From positions 6,496-70,495 of the forward strand of contig AQSC01000061.1 in the NCBI GenBank assembly GCA_000402775.1: a stretch of 64,000 nt of DNA, in the 5' to 3' direction. The translations under genes and the position numbers were made by a program. Below, piece by piece: positions 15,971-25,297 of the stretch. The notes below the pieces were generated by a model that saw only the letters and a list, made by a program, of their open reading frames with translations, was not told the origin of the DNA and ran no database searches. The stretch comes from Euryarchaeota archaeon SCGC AAA252-I15 (lineage in GTDB: Archaea; Altiarchaeota; Altiarchaeia; IMC4; SCGC-AAA252-I15). The stretch's first letter is position 1. Each line of letters begins with the position of its first letter.

Positions 15971-16885
15971 ATGCCTTTAACTGAAGTCGAAAAAATATGG
16001 ATGAACGGTAAGCTCATAGACTGGGCTGATGCTAAAGTTCACGTGCTCACTCACGCCTTACATTATGGTAGCGGAGTCTTTGAGGGATTACGCTGCTATA
16101 ATGCGAAGAAGGGTCCTGCAGTATTCAGGCTAGTCGACCATATGGAAAGGTTTTTAGATTCCGCGAAAATTTATTTCATGGACTTACCTTACACTATTGA
16201 ACAATTGTGTGAGGGGGCCCGGGAGGTCGTTAGAGTCAACAAGCTTAAGGAGTGCTACATCCGCCCCATCGCATTTAGGGGTTACGGGGAGATGGGTTTG
16301 AATCCGTTAAACGCTGTCATAGACGTTGCGATTGCAGCCTGGCCTTGGGGTACTTACTTGGGTGAGGAAGGGTTGGAGACGGGAATCAGGGTTAAGATTT
16401 CCAGCTACGAAAGAATCAATGCAAACGTGATGCCGCCCGCAGCCAAGGCGACCGGACAATACATAAACTCCATACTTGCGAAAATAGAATCCTTAAAGGC
16501 GGGATACGATGAAGCGTTAATGCTCGACAACCGGGGCATGGTCAGTGAAGGACCTGGAGAAAATATTTTTATGGTTAAAGAAGGATTCCTCTACACGCCA
16601 CCCGAACACGCAAGCATACTTCCGGGAATAACCCGGGACAGCATCATACATCTCGCGGGAGACTTAAACATCCCCGCCTGCATAACCGACATAGACCGAG
16701 GCATGCTCTTAACAGCGGACGAGCTGTTTTTCACCGGCACGGCCGCGGAAGTCACACCCATCCGGGAAGTCGACGGAATAGGAATAGGAAAGCCAGGACC
16801 AATCACGAAAAAACTCCAGAAAAAGTTCTTTGAAGCCGCAAAAGGAAAAGACAAGAAACACGAAGACTGGATAGACTACGTTTGA
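15971..16885 (+). CDS. ilvE: Branched-chain-amino-acid aminotransferase (fold-type IV PLP enzyme)
   Basis: GSGVFEGLRCY, a lysine-containing core, the ...EVTPIREVDG... C-terminal motif and a ~300-aa length all fit IlvE. Confidence 0.8.
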   Translation: MPLTEVEKIWMNGKLIDWADAKVHVLTHALHYGSGVFEGLRCYNAKKGPAVFRLVDHMERFLDSAKIYFMDLPYTIEQLCEGAREVVRVNKLKECYIRPIAFRGYGEMGLNPLNAVIDVAIAAWPWGTYLGEEGLETGIRVKISSYERINANVMPPAAKATGQYINSILAKIESLKAGYDEALMLDNRGMVSEGPGENIFMVKEGFLYTPPEHASILPGITRDSIIHLAGDLNIPACITDIDRGMLLTADELFFTGTAAEVTPIREVDGIGIGKPGPITKKLQKKFFEAAKGKDKKHEDWIDYV

Positions 16886-16961
16886 AGTATAATACCACCA
16901 AAAAGAACAAAAAAGTGAGATAATTAGTGTTATCTGTAATTCCCGAGGGCGCAAAAGAAAA

Positions 16962-17717
16962 TTAACCCCATTTTTTACTATCCTTCAATCTTGTTGTTTC
17001 TTCGTCTTTTTCCGGTTTCCGGAAAACATAGAGGTGTTCGTGCATGATTAGTAGGAAGTTTGATTCTTGGGATTTTTTTTTCCAGAAGCCGGTGGCTTTG
17101 CAGTTCCATTGTTGTTTGATTATGTCTTCTTTGAGTATGAATCCTGCTTTTAGGAAGGCTTGTAGGATTCTAGCTGAAATGGGGACATAGTGTTTATGTC
17201 TCCGGGTGTCGCCGATTAGTATTCCACAATATTTTCCTGATTTTAGGACTCGAATGCTTTCCTGAGCCACGATTTTCATTTCTTCTGCGAATTCGTTTAA
17301 GTCGTGGACTGAGGATAAATCGCCTTTAACTTGTTCTTGTGTGTAAGGGATGATATTCAAATAAGGAGGGTGTGTTGCTATCAAGTCTATTGATTCGTCT
17401 GATATTTTATCGAGATTCCGAGCGTTGCCAACATATGTTTTTTGCCCTGTTTCAGGGAAGTTTTCGTCTATCGAATCAAACCTTAATCGGTCTCGCGTTA
17501 TCATTATTGCATCTGAATTGATATCTACTCCAATCCCGTTTCTTCCTAACAGCTTACATTCGATTAGTGTCGTTCCTCCGCCGACCATCTGATCTAGAAC
17601 CGTATCGCCTTCCGTAGAATAACGTAGAATAAGGTTTCTTGGTATCTCGGGGGCCCAGTTCCCCCTATAATCTCCTCTATGGGTGGCCCAATCCCCTCTT
17701 TTCGGGAAAGACCACAC
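16962..17717 (-). CDS. N6-adenine/N4-cytosine DNA methyltransferase (PF01555-like). Motif I precedes motif IV, so it is a gamma-type order
   Basis: Motif I is VLDQMVGGGTTLIEC (FxGxG). Motif IV is SIDLIATHPPYLN ((D/N/S/H)PPY). C-terminal HEHLYVFRKP is a typical ending for this family. 251 aa. Confidence 0.65.
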   Translation of the reverse strand: MWSFPKRGDWATHRGDYRGNWAPEIPRNLILRYSTEGDTVLDQMVGGGTTLIECKLLGRNGIGVDINSDAIMITRDRLRFDSIDENFPETGQKTYVGNARNLDKISDESIDLIATHPPYLNIIPYTQEQVKGDLSSVHDLNEFAEEMKIVAQESIRVLKSGKYCGILIGDTRRHKHYVPISARILQAFLKAGFILKEDIIKQQWNCKATGFWKKKSQESNFLLIMHEHLYVFRKPEKDEETTRLKDSKKWG

Positions 17718-17776
17718 TGTTGAACACTCTAGTTCGAAATCCTTTTATTTTTGATCTCCTAATCAGAGTTCATATT

Positions 17777-18553
17777 ATGGATTTACACTTGTTCAACGAA
17801 TCTATTTTTAGGCGTTATAAAAGCAATTCCCAAAGGATTAGAAGATTATCAGAGGATTGGTTTGAAGAACAGATGTATTGTCCAGCATGTAAGTGCGATA
17901 ATCTGGAATCCTTTCAGAATAACACACCTGTCGCTGATTTTTACTGCCCAAAGTGCATGAGCCAATTCCAGCTGAAGAGTCAGTCAAATCCTTTTGGAAA
18001 TCGAATTCTTGATGGAGCATATTCAAAAATGATAGAATCTATTCATAAAGGAGATCAACCCCACTTCTTCCTTTTGCACTATACACTCAATGATTGGTCT
18101 GTCTTGAATTTAGAAGTAATACCTAACTACTTTTTTTCAGAATCAATAATCGAGAAGCGTAAACCCTTAGCCCCAACAGCTAGACGGGCCGGTTGGGTAG
18201 GCTGTAACCTTCTCTTATCTAGGATTCCAGAAGACGGGAGGATTCAGACAATAACTGATTCAATAATCCATGAATCCAAAGAGGTGAGAACCAATTGGCT
18301 GAAAGTCTCATTTCTCAAGAATCAGAAATCCCCGAGTAGAGGCTGGATTACTGATATTATGTGGTGCATCAAAGACCTTGATAAAAAAGAATTCACTCTG
18401 GATGAAATTTACTCCTATAAGAACCATTTAGCCAAACTACATCCATTGAACAAGAATATTAAGCCGAAAATCAGACAGCAACTACAATTCTTGAGAGACA
18501 AAAAATACCTCAAATTCCTAGGAAGTGGGGAATACCAGCTAAAAAAAAGATAA
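17777..18553 (+). CDS. Putative restriction endonuclease, DpnI-like (methyl-directed Type IIM): N-terminal PD-(D/E)xK-type domain with a Cys4 element plus a C-terminal winged helix
   Basis: The likely true start is ATG at 17777 (MDLHLFNES...); the track ORF begins at 17639 and overlaps the divergent methyltransferase. Motifs: YKSNSQ, CPACKCDN...PVADFYCPKC, RKPLAPTARRAGWVGCN, C-terminal IRQQLQFLRDKKYL. The arrangement matches what I recall of R.DpnI, but this needs a database or HHpred check. Confidence 0.5.
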   Translation: MDLHLFNESIFRRYKSNSQRIRRLSEDWFEEQMYCPACKCDNLESFQNNTPVADFYCPKCMSQFQLKSQSNPFGNRILDGAYSKMIESIHKGDQPHFFLLHYTLNDWSVLNLEVIPNYFFSESIIEKRKPLAPTARRAGWVGCNLLLSRIPEDGRIQTITDSIIHESKEVRTNWLKVSFLKNQKSPSRGWITDIMWCIKDLDKKEFTLDEIYSYKNHLAKLHPLNKNIKPKIRQQLQFLRDKKYLKFLGSGEYQLKKR

Positions 18554-18585
18554 TAGCTTTTAAATTTAGAATCGATCTGGATCAC

Positions 18586-18786
18586 ATGAAAAGATTTCTT
18601 ATTATTGGCGATAGAGGAAAATATGGTTGGATGATAGATTTTGTAGTCCTGTGGATAGGTCAAGCAAAAAATGAGAAACACGCCTTATACCAGTTTAAAA
18701 AAATCATAAGTAGAGAACCGCATGATGTCTATAAGATAATTGAGATATGCAACGAAACTGAATTTCTATCATATAGCGGTTTCTAG
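18586..18786 (+). CDS. Hypothetical small protein (66 aa) between the nuclease and the Dam-like gene
   Basis: ORF only. It overlaps the 3' end of the convergent Dam-like gene by 18 nt. No motif. Confidence 0.25.
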   Translation: MKRFLIIGDRGKYGWMIDFVVLWIGQAKNEKHALYQFKKIISREPHDVYKIIEICNETEFLSYSGF

Positions 18787-19368
18787 TTTATACGGGTCGA
18801 AGTATACTAAATCATTCTCAGTAACCATCTTTTCGACTCCTTCAAAATCCATTAATTTAATTTCAACTCCTTGAAGTAATTCGCTGGCTTTACGTAATGC
18901 CTTTTCGTTCACGATATTGGGATTTTTGTAACGACCGAATGGTACATTAAACTCTCCCTTCGAGTTTTCTCGATATAATCCATTAAAGCAGGTTTTATTC
19001 AGATACAAAAACATGGCTGATTCCTCAATTCCCCCAGACTTTGAATTGAATCGATCACGTATTGAATAGAAATACTCCTTGGAATGGTTCTTATCATGGA
19101 TCTGAAGGAAGTCGATAATATCGCCAACCGAATCCCTAACATTAATGTAACAGTCAACAAGGGTTTTATTAGAATCGGATAAGACTATCTTTTCCGGAGA
19201 GAACTTCTGTTTAACATAATAAAAGACTGCTCCGCCTCCGATAAATGGTTCAAAATAGCTGTTAAAATCGGGGGGAAAATAATGTTCAAACTGTTTCAAT
19301 AATTGAGATTTTCCGCCCGCCCATTTTACAAAAATAGGAATTTCATATCCGTTCATATGATATATCAT
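18769..19368 (-). pseudogene. Dam-family (D12-class) N6-adenine DNA methyltransferase, C-terminally truncated a few residues after motif IV
   Basis: N-terminal IFVKWAGGKSQLL and FEPFIGGGAVF are Dam motifs X and I. The ORF ends ...LVYFDPYKLETAI*: motif IV is degenerate (DPY instead of DPPY) and the ~100 aa that follow in full-length Dam are missing. No continuation is seen in other frames downstream. Confidence 0.55.
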
Positions 19369-19714
19369 TTGTGGGGAATTCTAATAAAAACCCACAGAGT
19401 CCAATAAAAAAATAAAAATATTGTGGCTCGCAACTCTTCACCCTATCGAGCTTGATTCGACTTTTCGAGTCTTGGTTGTTTAAAAAGTGGCTAAACGGGA
19501 AATCCTTCGGATTTCCCCAAGTTTTCTCCCTACATTCGTAAACTGAGTTTACTCACATATGTTAAATCCTATCGCGGAGAGTATATCTGTTGGTAATGAT
19601 TTATTTTTTGAAAAAGTCATTGTGCTTGCTTCTATGGAATTCTCTGACGTCTTTGGTGTGGTAAGTTTTGGTCAGAAGCATGTAGCTGAAGACGAAATTG
19701 GGTTGTTTGAGTAG

Positions 19715-20392
19715 TCAGTTTATTACTGTCCCAGTAAAGGATTCCCCATTTATCACGTCTTTTAGGTTTTCTAAGTCGTGCCCGTGAAGGATTATGGTTT
19801 TTACTTTTGAGCGGATTATTGACTCTACTGCCATCTTGTCCATGAGCGCGTAGTTGCCGGGGGATTGGGGGATGCCTTCTACCAGCGTTAGTAGTTCATC
19901 GGCCGACATTTCCTCGATAAGGGTTGCGTCACTAAATTTCTTCGGGTCTTTGTTGTAGACGCCGTCGATGTTGGAGGCGTTTATGAGAAGGTCCGCGCCA
20001 ACTGTTTCGGCGAGTTGTGCGGCAACAGCGTCTGTCGAGTGTTTGGGGTCGGTCCCTCCCATAACCACGATTTCTTTCGACTTGGCCTGCGCGATCGCTT
20101 CCGCTACTGTCTGAGGTATCTGCCTGTTTGCCCGCTTCCCAATCGCAGATGAGAGTAGAAGCGCGTTCAAGCGGGTGGCGTAAATGCCAAGCCAGTCAAG
20201 AAGTTCGTCAGAGGCGTCAAGTTTTCTTGCGGCTTGCTGGTATTTCCTGGCGATTTTTCCCCCGCCCACAACCACGTAAACCTTGTGCCTTTGGGTTAAT
20301 TCCCTTAAAAACTCTGCGACTTCCTCTAGAAAACTCGGATCTATTTCATCAGGAGCTAGTATGCTTCCCCCCAGCGAGAAAACAATCTTCAT
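19715..20392 (-). CDS. pyrH: Uridylate (UMP) kinase, archaeal type
   Basis: MKIVFSLGGSIL...VYVVVGGGKIARKY...GGTDPKHSTDAVAAQLA is the amino-acid-kinase fold with the archaeal PyrH signature. 225 aa. Confidence 0.85.
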   Translation of the reverse strand: MKIVFSLGGSILAPDEIDPSFLEEVAEFLRELTQRHKVYVVVGGGKIARKYQQAARKLDASDELLDWLGIYATRLNALLLSSAIGKRANRQIPQTVAEAIAQAKSKEIVVMGGTDPKHSTDAVAAQLAETVGADLLINASNIDGVYNKDPKKFSDATLIEEMSADELLTLVEGIPQSPGNYALMDKMAVESIIRSKVKTIILHGHDLENLKDVINGESFTGTVIN

Positions 20393-23452: not shown

Positions 23453-25297
23453 TTAGATTATTAATGATAGGCTGATGAGATTCCAACCTGTAAGTAATTC
23501 ACAGAGGTGGCAGCGGTATACGCAACCTGACATGATATTACTTGAATCATTGTAGTTGAAGACTGTGTTACATGTGTTATTGTCTCCTGTTGTTGCATCG
23601 CCGTCGTATATGTCGTAGTATGCACCCCCTGAGATATTGTTAAAACAAAAGTAGTTATCATACAATGCATTCCCTGTGCTGAGATTGTCAATGTAAGAGC
23701 CCCAAGTATTGTAATCTGCAGTATTGTTGATTAAAGTGTTATTAGTTGATTCTAAAATTATTATACCTGCACTGTTGTTCCTAGCTGTGTTTGATGTCAA
23801 TGTGTTGAAATTACTAGATGATATGAGGATAATCCCTCCCTCATCGTTGTTAGTTACAACATTATTAGATAGAGTATTGTTACTCGACAACTCAAAAAAC
23901 ATGCCATATTCGAAATTCGATACATTACATTTTTTAACCGTTACATTACTCACATTTAGTCCAACAATACCAAAATAAAGCCCTTTTCCTTGTATTTTAT
24001 GTCCACGACAATCTAACGTTATGCTGTCGGTTCCAACGATTAATCCCTCCAACGAATCCTTATCAGAGCAATTAAGGTCGGCATTCAAACTAATGTCGGA
24101 CGTTAAAATCTCACCGCAGGGGACACAGGGATTCACACACCCTGTCGTGTTCGTGTCATTGTATTTGTAGGTTGTGTCACAGGTGTTGTTTTCACCTAGC
24201 GTGTTACCATTTATATAGATGTCATTGTAGATAGTCCGTTGTAGATTATTAAAACAAACGCGATTACCATACAATTTATTTTCCATACTTGAATTATCAA
24301 TGGACAAACCATGACGTAGATTATAGTTGACTGTGTTATTACTAAATGTGTTATTGAAACTATATGGAATAAGTTTTATTCCAAGTCCATTATTGTTAAC
24401 TGTGTTTTCTTCGATTTGAGTATGGCTAGATGATTCGAGATATATTCCCTCATCATCATTATTGCTCACCGTGTTGTTTATTATTAAGGAATTAGTAACT
24501 GTATCGAAGAAAACACCAACATCATTTCCAATAATACTATTATTGAAAAGCTTATTGCCAGTTGACAAGAAAGAAAAAACACCATAATCGCCGTTAATAA
24601 TTGTGTTAGATATTATTGAATTGTAGTCACTTGACGGGCGCATGTATATACCTTCGTCATTATTGGATATAGTGTTATATGAAAGAATATTACCATCCGA
24701 CTCATCAATAACGATGCCATCATCGCTATTATCATTGATAAAGTTGCCAATAATCGAGTTATTGTGTGACCCAACAAGATAAATCGCTTCTGCACTCCCG
24801 TTAATAATAGTATTGTTTAAGATTGTATTGCTTTCACCCAAAAGTATCCCTATGCCTCCATTGTTATTTGTGAGAGTATTAGATGTGACATTGGTTAGAT
24901 TTGATGAAAAAATGAGGATAGTACCCTCACTAAAACTCAGAGTATTATTGTAGAGGAGACAATTATTCGATAAATCTAGGAATATGCCGTAGTCAAAATC
25001 CCGGATTACACAATTCTTTATTGTAACGTTTGAAATATTATGAAGCTGGATGCCAAAGAAGAACGGCTCACCTGAATCATTCAATGACTCATTTCTAGAA
25101 ATCAAATAACCATTACAGTCAAGTGTGATATCGTCAACACCCATTATCAAACCATGGCCACCGCAGTCAAGATTCGAAGATAAGTTAGTGTCCACAAGGA
25201 TTGTGTCTCCACAAGATACAGCATCAGCTACGGAGATAAGAAAAACAAGTAACACAATACACCTAAAGAACCTACTAGTTACGCCCATATTATCCAC
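23453..25297 (-). CDS. Secreted surface protein with two tandem parallel beta-helix (PbH1/NosD-like) domains, very rich in N-glycosylation sequons, with a C-terminal hydrophobic anchor
   Basis: Signal peptide MDNMGVTSRFFRCIVLLVFLISVADA. Two ~290-aa modules with repeated NxxxN/GIxL beta-helix rungs (NTISNNDEGIYM..NTIINGDYGVF..NSIIGNDVGVFF..NTVSNNDDEGIYL). Cys-rich caps (NNTCDTTYKYNDTNTTGCVNPCVPC / NNTCNTVFNYNDSSNIMSGCVYRCHLC). Dozens of N-x-S/T sites. Ends LISLSLII. Confidence 0.7.
   Translation of the reverse strand: MDNMGVTSRFFRCIVLLVFLISVADAVSCGDTILVDTNLSSNLDCGGHGLIMGVDDITLDCNGYLISRNESLNDSGEPFFFGIQLHNISNVTIKNCVIRDFDYGIFLDLSNNCLLYNNTLSFSEGTILIFSSNLTNVTSNTLTNNNGGIGILLGESNTILNNTIINGSAEAIYLVGSHNNSIIGNFINDNSDDGIVIDESDGNILSYNTISNNDEGIYMRPSSDYNSIISNTIINGDYGVFSFLSTGNKLFNNSIIGNDVGVFFDTVTNSLIINNTVSNNDDEGIYLESSSHTQIEENTVNNNGLGIKLIPYSFNNTFSNNTVNYNLRHGLSIDNSSMENKLYGNRVCFNNLQRTIYNDIYINGNTLGENNTCDTTYKYNDTNTTGCVNPCVPCGEILTSDISLNADLNCSDKDSLEGLIVGTDSITLDCRGHKIQGKGLYFGIVGLNVSNVTVKKCNVSNFEYGMFFELSSNNTLSNNVVTNNDEGGIILISSSNFNTLTSNTARNNSAGIIILESTNNTLINNTADYNTWGSYIDNLSTGNALYDNYFCFNNISGGAYYDIYDGDATTGDNNTCNTVFNYNDSSNIMSGCVYRCHLCELLTGWNLISLSLII

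What the first reader, a model, noticed from the sequence alone, without database searches (positions are those of the whole stretch)
16962..19368. DpnI-like putative methyl-directed nuclease next to a truncated Dam-family methyltransferase and a divergent gamma-type MTase
Three DNA-modification genes are clustered. The first is a PF01555-like MTase with an unusual HPPY motif IV and motif I preceding IV. The second is a 259-aa protein whose motif arrangement (YKSNSQ, Cys4 element, PVADFYC, RKPLAPTARRAGWVGCN, C-terminal wH IRQQLQFLRDK) matches what I recall of R.DpnI, which cuts only G(m6A)TC. The third is a Dam-like (FVKWAGGK / EPFIGGGAVF) MTase that stops 8 codons after a degenerate DPY motif. 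A functional GATC-Dam and a DpnI-type nuclease cannot coexist, so a decayed Dam beside a DpnI-like gene suggests a DpnI/DpnII-style cassette switch or an anti-Dam (anti-phage-methylation) defence island. The putative catalytic (D/E)xK reads QLK here (SQFQLKS), which could mean an inactive or variant active site.
Basis: partly seen in the sequence, partly recalled or inferred. Interest (0 to 1): 0.7.

Follow-up and report, generated by a model that had tools for sequence, protein, structure and literature searches.

The report
DpnI gene replacing DpnII restriction cassette
An uncultivated archaeon carries a nuclease gene of the kind that cuts only methylated GATC, sitting where the nuclease of a GATC restriction-modification operon used to be and leaving both methylase genes cut short: an archaeal case of the DpnI/DpnII swap known from pneumococcus and Neisseria.

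Summary
17777-18553(+) encodes a full-length DpnI homologue (PDB 4esj, E 1e-69; PF06044 + PF17726). 18769-19368(-) is a Dam/DpnM-type gene that lacks its last ~85 codons. 16962-17717(-) is a circularly permuted PF01555 methylase ("M2", HPPY motif). New here: M2 is also truncated, at its 5' end by ~45 codons. Related archaeal and viral contigs carry the intact operon Dam -> R.DpnII -> M2. In the window, the Dam 3' end, the whole DpnII gene and the M2 5' end are replaced by a 1.05-kb core, DpnI plus a 66-codon ORFan, in inverted orientation. The same core and nearly the same junctions occur in another Altiarchaeota lineage. There, the M2 remnant is 98% nucleotide-identical to a full-length M2 lying next to DpnII, so the two alleles were exchanged recently. 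The stops are real: four assemblies are 99.97-100% identical. QLK is not a defect: Q and E split 60:59 among the closest homologues, and every other catalytic, zinc and methyl-pocket residue is kept. Most likely this is an active Gm6ATC-dependent nuclease in a Dam-minus host. It is a new (archaeal) member of a known kind. The status of M2, and of conserved Dam fragments in distant loci, stays open.

The parts
16886..19714 (.). Whole 2.8-kb island inserted between the convergent 3' ends of ilvE (15971-16885, +) and pyrH (19715-20392, -).
   Evidence: In Ca. Altiarchaeota MAG126 (L013), with the same HisA-TatD-PurM-IlvE synteny, ilvE and pyrH are 20 nt apart. In another Altiarchaeota MAG (L017) a different 5.4-kb insert occupies the site. 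GC falls to 0.36-0.41 inside the island, against 0.44-0.47 in the flanks.
16962..17717 (-). M2: circularly permuted PF01555 DNA methylase core, 251 codons from GTG. It has motif I (DQMVGGGTT) followed by ATHPPY. It lacks the first ~45 codons of its closest homologues.
   Evidence: Homologues at 80-85% identity are 296-302 aa. An AlphaFold model of a full-length homologue gives low confidence (pLDDT 39-69) for residues 1-66 and high confidence for the core that the window retains.
17718..17747 (-). Nine further M2 codons (KDFELECST, M2 codons 38-46) without a start codon, preceded by an in-frame stop (17745-17747). This is the M2-side junction of the replacement.
17743..17776 (.). Short divergent intergenic region. 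An A/T-rich box (TTTTATTTTT, 17743-17752) lies 24 nt upstream of the DpnI ATG and 25 nt upstream of the M2 GTG. A GATC at 17753 is conserved in the L008 lineage. A role as an archaeal TATA-like element for leaderless transcripts is inferred.
   Evidence: Sequence; alignment with L008. The promoter function is inference only.
17777..18553 (+). DpnI-family type IIM restriction endonuclease: PD-(D/E)XK catalytic domain with a Cys4 zinc site, plus a C-terminal winged helix. Its orientation is opposite to the ancestral operon.
18586..18786 (+). orf66: a 66-codon ORFan that travels with this DpnI core. Its last 18 nt overlap, antisense, the end of the Dam fragment. Two GATC sites (18574, 18580) lie just upstream.
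   Evidence: It is intact, without indels and 79.6% nucleotide-identical in the L008/L009/L010 lineage, with dN/dS ~0.3 over 66 codons. It has no homologue outside its own cluster among 1.84 billion representatives and no Pfam, PADLOC, PHROG or Rfam hit.
18769..19368 (-). Dam/DpnM-type methylase fragment (199 codons). It has motif I (EPFIGGGAVF) and the target-recognition region. The DPPY motif is damaged (DP-Y, three codons shorter than in full-length homologues). All of motifs V-VIII are missing. Dam-derived sequence ends at about 18781 ('LET'); the tail 'AI*' belongs to the inserted core.

Best explanation
The locus is the 'DpnI allele' of a GATC restriction cassette in an Altiarchaeota-like archaeon.

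The ancestral state, still seen in related archaeal, mobile-element and viral contigs, is a three-gene DpnII-type operon: Dam-like methylase (279 aa) -> R.DpnII (308 aa) -> second, permuted PF01555 methylase M2 (~296 aa).

In the window, a 1.05-kb core (17745-~18785) carries a DpnI-family gene and a 66-codon ORFan in inverted orientation. It has replaced the last ~85 codons of Dam, the whole DpnII gene and the first ~37 codons of M2. One event thus removed the methyl-sensitive nuclease and killed the GATC methylase (shown). A nuclease that needs fully methylated Gm6ATC can then be kept without self-cleavage (inferred from the established dam/drg incompatibility in Neisseria).

The DpnI homologue keeps every residue known to matter in R.DpnI for catalysis, zinc binding, GATC reading and the methyl pocket. 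It is therefore most likely an active type IIM enzyme. It would cut incoming DNA (viruses, plasmids, DNA from sister strains) that carries Dam/DpnII-type GATC methylation and leave the unmethylated host genome alone (inferred).

The two alleles are exchanged between strains by recombination inside the retained methylase gene segments, which act as homology arms. This exchange is shown for a sister lineage and inferred for the window lineage.

The Dam fragment is non-functional as a methylase. M2 keeps its whole catalytic core and may or may not still be expressed.
For: Identity of the genes.

Intact operon Dam->DpnII->M2:
- L007, uncultured archaeon GCA_902384455.1.
- Dam+DpnII next to an integrase in L005.
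- DpnII+M2 in L006.
- M2...Dam-DpnII on IMG/VR contig L163.

Breakpoints. tblastn of the full-length proteins finds Dam residues 1-188 at 19356-18793 and M2 residues 38/39-296 at 17744-16971. It finds nothing for DpnII anywhere in the 64 kb.

Same core in a second lineage. L008/L009/L010 (Altiarchaeota GCA_018897475.1) align with window 17388-18810 at 74.6% nucleotide identity. They carry M2 codons 43-156, DpnI, orf66 and a ~40-nt Dam tail.

Allelic exchange. L169 and L168 (the C-terminal end of DpnII, seen in L169, plus full-length M2) are 97.7-98.0% nucleotide-identical to the L008 M2 remnant over exactly those 342 nt. The homology stops at the DpnI junction. L008's M2 arm is 98% amino-acid-identical to full-length P0244 but only 88% to the window's arm.

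Not an artefact. The island is 99.97-100% identical in four assemblies.

Nuclease competence (roles from PMC3424567 and PMC4117772):
- Conserved: E26, D54, K67, the four Cys, Q19, N49, R128, L131, R137, W140, G142, K231, R233, Q234.
- Q65/E65 is 60:59 in the 119 closest homologues, while D54 and K67 are invariant.
- Synonymous sites are saturated between Q-type homologues while dN is 0.18-0.31.

History of GATC restriction. GATC is the most depleted palindromic tetramer in the window (131 observed, 251 expected, ratio 0.52).

Precedent. drg is inserted within dam, with dam truncation, and dam+ and drg+ are mutually exclusive (PMC4269198 and PMC516771).
Against: - No biochemical or methylome data are available, so absence of GATC methylation in this organism is inferred, not shown.
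- Only 64 kb of the genome was seen. Another GATC methylase elsewhere cannot be excluded.
- E64A abolishes DpnI activity, and no Q-type family member known to me has been characterised.
- The window protein also lacks the acidic residue at position 62 (DpnI E61) that 99 of 119 homologues have.
- No DpnII allele was found at the ilvE-pyrH site of the window's own lineage. The closest full-length Dam and M2 (85% identity) sit in other genomic contexts.
- The window's Dam fragment shows no excess amino-acid change relative to full-length homologues. That fits a recent swap but also fits retention by selection.
Confidence: 0.8

Rival explanations
1. The three genes form a working module in their present form. 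The C-terminally truncated Dam would act as a non-catalytic GATC- or AdoMet-binding accessory or regulator of DpnI, and M2 would be an active methylase with a modification compatible with DpnI (for example m4C, single-stranded DNA only, or another site). They would not be scars of a replacement.
For: In a distant set of DpnI loci (~50% identity), the order Dam fragment -> DpnI -> M2 recurs on one strand: L119, L126, L132, L153, L110 and L094 (the last shows the Dam fragment only).

- The Dam fragments all end shortly after DPPY ('...SFTSYTFA*').
- They share a conserved ~45-aa N-terminal extension and have no internal stops.
- Their changes concentrate at third codon positions (40/29/111; dN/dS ~0.09).
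- In L110 the fragment is fused in frame to DpnI (503 aa).

Of 53 distant loci with enough flank, 12 have an apparently complete M2 directly downstream of DpnI. The window's Dam fragment is not accelerated. The M2 core is complete in the window. M2 relatives also live as solitary genes.
Against: - A Dam truncated after motif IV lacks motifs V-VIII, three of the seven strands of the methylase fold (established architecture of alpha-class MTases).
- In the window and in L008 the DPPY motif itself is damaged, and by different lesions.
- L008 has lost nearly all of Dam and most of M2 yet keeps DpnI and orf66.
- Seven of 53 distant loci keep only 3' remnants of M2 of varied length, as expected of decay.
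- The low dN/dS of the arms is equally explained by recent residence in full-length alleles, as shown by the 98% identity of L008's arm to a full-length M2.
- In the window DpnI is inverted relative to both fragments, so there is no operon.
Confidence: 0.12
2. The DpnI homologue is catalytically dead (QLK, and no acidic residue at 62/63/65). It would survive only as a Gm6ATC-binding protein or a decaying gene, and the locus would be a defunct restriction island.
For: E64A abolishes R.DpnI activity. The window protein has S62, Q63 and Q65 where most relatives have at least one acidic residue. A regulatory, non-nucleolytic role has been suggested for Neisseria Drg (PMC4269198).
Against: - Q at this position is found in 60 of the 119 closest homologues, and in all of the 25 closest homologues whose sequences were inspected.
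- The remaining catalytic residues E26, D54 and K67 are invariant or nearly so in this same set. That would not be expected if catalysis were lost.
- The ORF is intact in lineages separated by saturated synonymous divergence.
- From my own knowledge, not checked here: HinP1I uses E18/D62/Q81-x-K83, so a QxK strand with a helix Glu is compatible with cleavage.
Confidence: 0.07
3. The truncated reading frames are sequencing or assembly errors, and full-length Dam and M2 genes exist.
For: None beyond the general frequency of frameshifts in metagenome assemblies.
Against: - The island is 99.97-100% identical in assemblies from four samples in two repositories.
- The missing parts are absent in all frames. 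tblastn with full-length proteins finds nothing for Dam 189-279, M2 1-37 or DpnII.
- There is no room for them: the DpnI gene occupies the space.
Confidence: 0.01

Closest known systems
Complementary DpnI / DpnII cassettes of Streptococcus pneumoniae (Lacks et al. 1986, cited in PMC3812788; DpnII = dpnM, dpnA, dpnB; DpnI = dpnC, dpnD)
   Same: - Alternative alleles at one locus: either a Dam-type methylase, a second PF01555-type methylase and a DpnII nuclease, or a DpnI nuclease with a small companion gene.
- The alleles are exchanged between strains by recombination.
- DpnI and DpnM are the closest solved structures to the window proteins.
   Different: - The organism is an archaeon (Altiarchaeota).
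- The gene order is M1-R-M2, not M1-M2-R.
- The second methylase is a circularly permuted PF01555 with HPPY and is not a close DpnA relative (5hek matches only the motif I region).
- The exchange boundaries lie inside the two methylase genes, so the DpnI allele carries truncated methylase genes as flanks. From my own recollection, in pneumococcus the two cassettes share no gene remnants.
- orf66 has no detectable similarity to anything, so no relation to dpnD could be shown.
Neisseria dam-replacing gene drg (NmeBII/Drg) at the leuS/dam locus
   Same: A DpnI-family nuclease is inserted within dam and truncates it. dam+ and drg+ genotypes are mutually exclusive. The island has lower GC than the genome. 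It sits in a recombination hot spot between conserved genes (PMC4269198, PMC516771). Pfam names PF06044 the 'Dam-replacing family'.
   Different: Here the replaced unit is a complete R-M operon (two methylases plus DpnII), not a solitary dam. Two methylase genes are truncated at once. The host is an archaeon. The nuclease has QxK instead of ExK.
R.DpnI, PDB 4esj/4kyw (type IIM, Gm6ATC)
   Same: The match is full-length, with 45% identity. Conserved features are the same two-domain architecture, the Cys4 zinc site, E25/D53/K66, the methyl pocket L129/R135/W138/G140, the base contacts Q18/N48/R126, and wH residues K229/R231/Q232.
   Different: E64->Q, E61->S and E228->P. The first and third are common variants in this branch of the family.
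DpnII/MboI-type GATC R-M systems with two methylases
   Same: The related loci L007, L006, L005 and L163 encode PF02086 + PF04556 + a PF01555-type methylase.
   Different: In the window the nuclease PF04556 is absent and the PF02086 gene is truncated. The window is a derivative of such a system, not a member.

Membership tests
DpnI family type IIM endonuclease (PF06044 + PF17726) | N-terminal DpnI catalytic domain and C-terminal winged-helix domain, full length | tested here: met
   PF06044 at 8.4e-70 (3-182/183); PF17726 at 9.9e-29 (2-69/70); 4esj at 1.1e-69 over residues 1-254.
DpnI family type IIM endonuclease (PF06044 + PF17726) | PD-(D/E)XK catalytic residues E25, D53, E64, K66 of R.DpnI | tested here: inconclusive
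   E26, D54 and K67 are present. E64 is Q65. Q:E is 60:59 in the 119 closest homologues, with D and K invariant. E64A kills DpnI. No Q-type enzyme has been tested.
DpnI family type IIM endonuclease (PF06044 + PF17726) | Cys4 zinc site in the catalytic domain | tested here: met
   C35, C38, C57 and C60 align with C34, C37, C56 and C59.
DpnI family type IIM endonuclease (PF06044 + PF17726) | Methyl-binding cleft (L129, R135, W138, G140) and GATC base contacts (Q18, N48, R126) of the catalytic domain | tested here: met
   L131, R137, W140, G142, Q19, N49 and R128 are all conserved (roles from PMC4117772).
DpnI family type IIM endonuclease (PF06044 + PF17726) | Recognition-helix residues of the winged helix (E228, K229, R231, Q232) | tested here: met
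   K231, R233 and Q234 are conserved. E228 is P230, as in 29 of 119 homologues; the column reads D/P/A.
DpnI family type IIM endonuclease (PF06044 + PF17726) | Cleavage dependent on Gm6ATC methylation | not testable with these tools
   Needs enzyme assays on Dam+ and Dam- DNA.
Dam/DpnM alpha-class N6-adenine methylase (PF02086, TIGR00571) | AdoMet motif I (FxGxG) and the N-terminal half including the target-recognition region | tested here: met
   EPFIGGGAVF is present. PF02086 positions 1-183 of 253 match at 6e-47. All family-invariant columns in the covered part are kept.
Dam/DpnM alpha-class N6-adenine methylase (PF02086, TIGR00571) | Catalytic motif IV, DPPY | tested here: not met
   The window reads DP-YKLET where full-length homologues read DPPYHPLSET, three codons shorter.
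Dam/DpnM alpha-class N6-adenine methylase (PF02086, TIGR00571) | C-terminal ~85 residues (motifs V-VIII) | tested here: not met
   They are absent in all frames. The gene is a fragment, not a functional member.
PF01555 N6/N4 DNA methylase (permuted M2 subfamily; PADLOC MTase_II PDLC03376) | Motif I and a motif IV-type xPPY, with the conserved core | tested here: met
   DQMVGGGTT and ATHPPY are present, and H is invariant in the subfamily. PDLC03376 matches at 7.6e-81 over profile 22-249/249. Permutation relative to 2zie was confirmed.
PF01555 N6/N4 DNA methylase (permuted M2 subfamily; PADLOC MTase_II PDLC03376) | Complete reading frame with the N-terminal region, including the near-invariant 'QPxxFExE' segment | tested here: not met
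   Codons 1-37 are deleted. Codons 38-46 are present but lie behind a stop and have no start. The ORF starts at GTG, at the V of 'VWSFPKRG'. The region is of low confidence in the model, so loss of function is not established.
DpnII-type R-M system | PF04556 DpnII endonuclease gene | tested here: not met
   tblastn with three DpnII proteins finds no hit in the island or anywhere in the 64-kb window.
Allelic (intercellular) DpnI/DpnII cassette polymorphism | Near-identical flanks with alternative DpnI or DpnII cores in related strains | tested here: met
   This was met for the sister lineage. L169 and L168 (full M2; L169 also carries the DpnII end) are 97.7-98.0% nucleotide-identical to L008/L009 (DpnI core) over M2 codons 43-156, and the homology ends at the junction. 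For the window's own lineage no DpnII allele at ilvE-pyrH was found.

The most novel reading that the evidence does not exclude
The C-terminally truncated Dam next to DpnI may not be a scar. It may be a recruited protein. In several distant uncultivated lineages, a ~245-aa 'Dam N-terminal half' is conserved directly upstream of DpnI. It ends just after DPPY, carries its own conserved N-terminal extension and is under purifying selection. In one case it is fused in frame to DpnI. It could act as a GATC- or AdoMet-sensing accessory subunit or regulator of a methyl-directed nuclease. A related possibility is that placing the exchange boundaries inside the methylase genes is a selected design. One recombination event would then switch a cell between 'methylate and cut unmethylated GATC' and 'do not methylate and cut methylated GATC'. 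The permuted HPPY methylase M2, kept in both alleles, would carry a modification compatible with both nucleases.
Probability: 0.2. Interest if true: 0.65.

Novelty: new member of a known kind. Interest (0 to 1): 0.4.

Why it matters
It shows that the complementary DpnI/DpnII strategy also operates in an uncultivated archaeal phylum. In that strategy, part of a population methylates GATC and cuts unmethylated DNA, while the rest does the reverse and so catches viruses that escaped with methylation. Until now the textbook cases were pneumococcus and Neisseria.

It also shows the molecular scar of the switch: two methylase genes truncated by one replacement. Truncated Dam or M2 genes beside DpnI genes recur in distant metagenomic lineages, so such swaps are probably common.

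For annotation, a 'Dam' and a 'DNA methylase' called at this locus should not be read as evidence of GATC methylation. For Altiarchaeota biology, it predicts an unmethylated-GATC host and viruses or mobile elements that carry Dam-DpnII-M2 cassettes. Both predictions are testable in existing metagenomes and methylomes.

Tried and rejected
- dN/dS on the methylase fragments was largely uninformative. Synonymous sites are saturated in most comparisons (dS not computable). I used codon-position counts, a Tajima relative-rate test and nucleotide identity to near-identical alleles instead.
- The genome-contig scan with IlvE did not return the window's own species. The best hit was 70% identical. It still gave the empty site (L013) and a differently filled site (L017).
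- No DNA was available for the contig of the 74% DpnI homologue P0003.
- The last contig look-up (P0125) showed Dam at a contig end beside small unannotated ORFs, not at pyrH. A PHROG scan of those ORFs and of the L006 neighbours gave nothing convincing, so I do not claim they are viral.
- orf66 has no Pfam, NCBIfam, PADLOC or PHROG hit and no homologue outside its own cluster.
- Rfam finds nothing in 16800-19800.
- There are no tRNA genes in 10-26 kb and no terminal direct or inverted repeats that would mark a transposon or integration site.
- The bacterial promoter and terminator scan is at chance level and not applicable to archaea.
- The HinP1I paper (PMC1074309) is not held, and two other papers did not state the QxK motif. 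That precedent therefore rests on my own knowledge.
- I considered and rejected that M2 is strictly a component of GATC systems. Two relatives at 65-66% identity are solitary genes.
- I considered and rejected that the window's junctions are identical to those of the distant Dam-DpnI-M2 loci. Orientation and exact end points differ.


Full report
**1. What is in the sequence**

The interval holds three ORFs.

The middle one, 17777-18553(+), 258 aa, is an unambiguous DpnI homologue.
- It matches Pfam DpnI (PF06044) at E 8.4e-70 and DpnI_C (PF17726) at E 9.9e-29.
- It matches the R.DpnI crystal structure sequence 4esj at E 1.1e-69, aligned end to end.
- It matches PADLOC's type II methyl-directed restriction enzyme model at 1.3e-87.

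The right-hand ORF, 18769-19368(-), 199 aa, is a Dam/DpnM-type methylase gene.
- It matches TIGR00571 at 7e-61 and DpnM (2dpm) at 3e-43.
- It covers only the first ~183 of 253-267 profile positions and ends '...VYFDPYKLETAI*'.

The left-hand ORF, 16962-17717(-), 251 aa, is a PF01555 methylase.
- Its N-terminus matches the C-terminal (motif I) part of the profile.
- Its middle (ATHPPY) matches the N-terminal (motif IV) part.
- It is therefore circularly permuted relative to beta-class enzymes such as 2zie.

**2. The organism and the site**

The nearest named DpnI homologues are from Candidatus Altiarchaeota/Altiarchaeales.

The IlvE next door finds Ca. Altiarchaeota MAG126 as its best genome hit (70%). 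That MAG has the same HisA-TatD-PurM-IlvE order, and there ilvE and pyrH are only 20 nt apart. In a second Altiarchaeota MAG, the same junction holds an unrelated 5.4-kb block of glycosyltransferase and LPG-synthase-like genes.

The 2.8 kb between ilvE and pyrH in the window (16886-19714) is therefore an island in a variable spot. Its GC is lower than that of the flanks (0.36-0.41 against 0.44-0.47).

**3. Both methylase genes are truncated, and the missing piece is a DpnII gene**

The closest relatives of the Dam fragment (78-85% identity) are all 279 aa. The window copy stops where they continue for another ~85 residues.

The closest relatives of the PF01555 gene (80-85% identity) are 296-302 aa. 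The window copy starts at the V of the conserved 'TVWSFPKRG' and so lacks ~45 N-terminal residues.

Nine more homologous codons (KDFELECST) lie upstream of the GTG. They sit behind an in-frame stop and have no start codon.

Looking up where the full-length relatives are encoded gave the key result.
- In L007 (uncultured archaeon GCA_902384455.1) the genes lie in the order Dam (279 aa) -> PF04556 DpnII endonuclease (309 aa) -> PF01555 'M2' (297 aa).
- L005 has Dam-DpnII beside an integrase.
- L006 has DpnII-M2.
- The IMG/VR contig L163 has M2, Dam and DpnII.

tblastn of these full-length proteins against the window finds three things:
- Dam residues 1-188 at 19356-18793;
- M2 residues 38/39-296 at 17744-16971;
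- no DpnII anywhere in the 64 kb.

So on the minus strand the window still has the two ends of a Dam->DpnII->M2 operon. The middle of that operon was about 1.35 kb: the Dam 3' end, the DpnII gene, the spacer and the M2 5' end. It has been replaced by about 1.05 kb carrying the DpnI gene and a 66-codon ORF on the opposite strand.

**4. The same core in a second lineage, and direct evidence for allele exchange**

Contigs L008, L009 and L010 carry a 72% identical DpnI (P0004); L009 is from Altiarchaeota MAG GCA_018897475.1.
- They align with window 17388-18810 at 74.6% nucleotide identity.
- They contain M2 codons 43-156, the same short intergenic region with its GATC and A/T box, DpnI, an intact orf66 (47 of 66 residues identical), and about 40 nt of the Dam tail.
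- An unrelated helicase gene follows.

On the Dam side, both lineages read through 'D-P-...-L-E-T' and then switch to core sequence. The DPPYHPLSET stretch is three codons shorter in both, with different lesions: DPYKLET in the window, DPPSLET in L008. The junctions are thus shared or nearly so: they lie within 15 nt of each other on the M2 side.

The M2 remnant of L008 is not closest to the window's M2 (88% amino-acid identity). It is closest to the full-length M2 proteins P0244 and P0245 (97-98%).

At the DNA level, L169 carries the C-terminal 104 codons of DpnII followed by full-length M2. L169 is 97.95% identical to L008/L009 over exactly the 342 nt of the remnant (L168: 97.66%). The homology stops at the DpnI junction.

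Two near-identical strains therefore differ by having either DpnII or DpnI at this position, whereas the DpnI cores of the two DpnI-bearing lineages are about 25% diverged. The simplest reading is allelic cassette exchange by recombination within the retained methylase segments. That is the pneumococcal 'intercellular cassette' idea, with the arms inside the methylase genes.

For the window's own lineage I found no DpnII allele at ilvE-pyrH, so the exchange there is inferred. A relative-rate test shows that the window's Dam fragment has not accumulated extra amino-acid changes compared with full-length homologues. With P0122 as the full-length homologue, the counts were 5-8 unique changes in the window fragment against 3-6 in P0122 with true outgroups, p >= 0.4. 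This fits a fairly recent swap.

**5. Is the nuclease likely to work?**

I mapped the residues named in the two DpnI structure papers onto the window protein and onto the 119 closest homologues.

Present in the window protein, and invariant or nearly so in the family:
- the helix glutamate (E26), the aspartate (D54) and the lysine (K67);
- all four zinc cysteines;
- the minor-groove and guanine contacts (Q19, N49, R128);
- the methyl cleft (L131, R137, W140, G142);
- the recognition-helix residues (K231, R233, Q234).

The one catalytic difference is Q65 for E64. In the 119 closest homologues this column is Q in 60 and E in 59. All of the 25 closest homologues whose sequences were inspected have Q. 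In 70 more distant metagenomic loci the ratio is E 54: Q 1. Q is thus the normal state of a large archaeal/DPANN-rich branch in which D and K stay invariant. It is not a private lesion.

The window protein and its two nearest relatives also lack the acidic residue at position 62 that 99 of 119 have. This is the main residual doubt.

From my own knowledge, not verified here, HinP1I cuts with an E/D/QxK constellation. I rate activity as likely, about three in four.

**6. How it most likely works**

Shown:
- the host copy of the GATC methylase is destroyed;
- the methyl-sensitive nuclease is gone;
- a DpnI-type gene is intact.

Established elsewhere: DpnI-family enzymes cut fully methylated Gm6ATC, and dam and drg are mutually exclusive in Neisseria, where drg insertion truncates dam.

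Inferred:
- The host genome is unmethylated at GATC.
- The enzyme destroys incoming DNA that carries GATC methylation. That includes elements carrying their own Dam-DpnII-M2 cassette (an integrase-linked copy and a viral contig were seen) and DNA from DpnII-allele strains.

GATC is the most under-represented palindromic tetramer in the window (ratio 0.52). This is consistent with a long history of GATC-directed restriction in the lineage.

A possible shared A/T-rich box lies 24-25 nt from both divergent start codons. It could serve leaderless transcription of DpnI and of the shortened M2, but this is speculation.

**7. Open points**

*(a) M2.* Its catalytic core is complete.
- The best PADLOC model is only 249 positions long, and the window protein covers positions 22-249.
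- In an AlphaFold model of a full-length homologue, the first 66 residues have low confidence.
- A few relatives have equally short N-termini.
- On the other hand, the near-invariant 'QPxxFExE' segment is lost.

M2 relatives also occur as solitary genes. They occur directly downstream of DpnI in 12 of 53 distant loci, with decayed remnants in 7 more. If M2 made Gm6ATC on duplex DNA it could not coexist with DpnI. So either it is silent here or its product is something else. I could not decide this.

*(b) Conserved Dam fragments elsewhere.* In loci L119, L126, L153, L132 and L110 (the latter two being variants of the L119 fragment), a ~245-aa Dam N-terminal half sits immediately upstream of DpnI.
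- It ends 'SFTSYTFA*' and carries its own N-terminal extension.
- It has no stops, and its changes concentrate at third codon positions (dN/dS about 0.09).
- In L110 it is fused in frame to DpnI.

This may reflect arms being refreshed from full-length alleles, or a real function of the fragment. It is the basis of the 'novel case'.

*(c) orf66.* It is conserved with the core but is an ORFan.

**8. Comparison and verdict**

The locus works like the pneumococcal DpnI cassette and the Neisseria dam-replacing gene, and the nuclease is a member of the DpnI family by every sequence criterion except ExK->QxK.

The Dam gene fails the membership test for a functional Dam: motif IV is damaged and motifs V-VIII are absent. 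The window is not a DpnII system, because it has no PF04556 gene.

What is new is the host (an uncultivated archaeal phylum), the visible double-methylase scar with the replaced DpnII gene, and the recurrence of similar arrangements in metagenomes. In kind it is already known, so I score interest as moderate.

Noticed in passing
L110:417-1928 (metagenome contig Ga0209542_10069385): A Dam N-terminal fragment and DpnI lie in one open frame of 503 codons, with no stop between '...SFTSYTFAF' and the DpnI start. In the related L119 and L132 loci a stop and 3 nt separate them.
   Followed up: partly
L119:3242-3985, L132:3248-3985, L110:420-1160: These Dam fragments share a conserved ~45-residue N-terminal extension (MTTKQAI.DIQ.TF.INAI.A..VF...) that is absent from the window's Dam and from DpnM. 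It has no Pfam match of its own.
   Followed up: partly
L130:2194-3189 and L132:4761-5762: The M2 reading frame downstream of DpnI carries an N-terminal nucleotidyltransferase-like segment (PF01909 at 5e-05; GS...SDLD motif). It is either a fusion or an upstream gene that runs into M2 without a stop.
   Followed up: no
L017:5969-11339 (Ca. Altiarchaeota PPR_0001): The same ilvE|pyrH junction holds a different 5.4-kb insert with two GT4 glycosyltransferases, an LPG-synthase-TM protein and three unannotated ORFs. The site is therefore a hot spot for variable content.
   Followed up: partly
window 18574-18583 and 17753-17756: Two GATC sites 2 nt apart sit just upstream of the orf66 start codon, and one GATC abuts the A/T-rich box upstream of DpnI. 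All three are conserved in the 25%-diverged L008 lineage. They may be regulatory sites for a GATC-reading protein.
   Followed up: no
window, whole 64 kb: Besides GATC (observed/expected 0.52), GTAC is also strongly depleted (0.60 by the Markov expectation). This hints at past or present GTAC-specific restriction in the lineage.
   Followed up: no
L005:1850-3067 and L163 (IMGVR_UViG_3300043932_000288): Full Dam-DpnII(-M2) cassettes occur next to a phage-type integrase and on a contig classed as viral. The DpnII-type allele therefore also travels on mobile elements. L006 additionally carries a second PF01555 methylase with an MvaI/BcnI-type nuclease.
   Followed up: partly
window 19369-19714: A 346-nt non-coding stretch lies between the Dam start and the pyrH stop. 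It contains a 9-bp GC-rich hairpin (19497-19517) followed on the minus strand by a T-rich run. Gene callers place a 51-codon ORF at 19559-19714. No Rfam match.
   Followed up: no
window 23453-25297 (-): A large Asn/Ser/Thr-rich protein (614 aa) with repeated beta-helix/NosD-type Pfam hits lies 3 kb from the island and is probably a surface protein.
   Followed up: no
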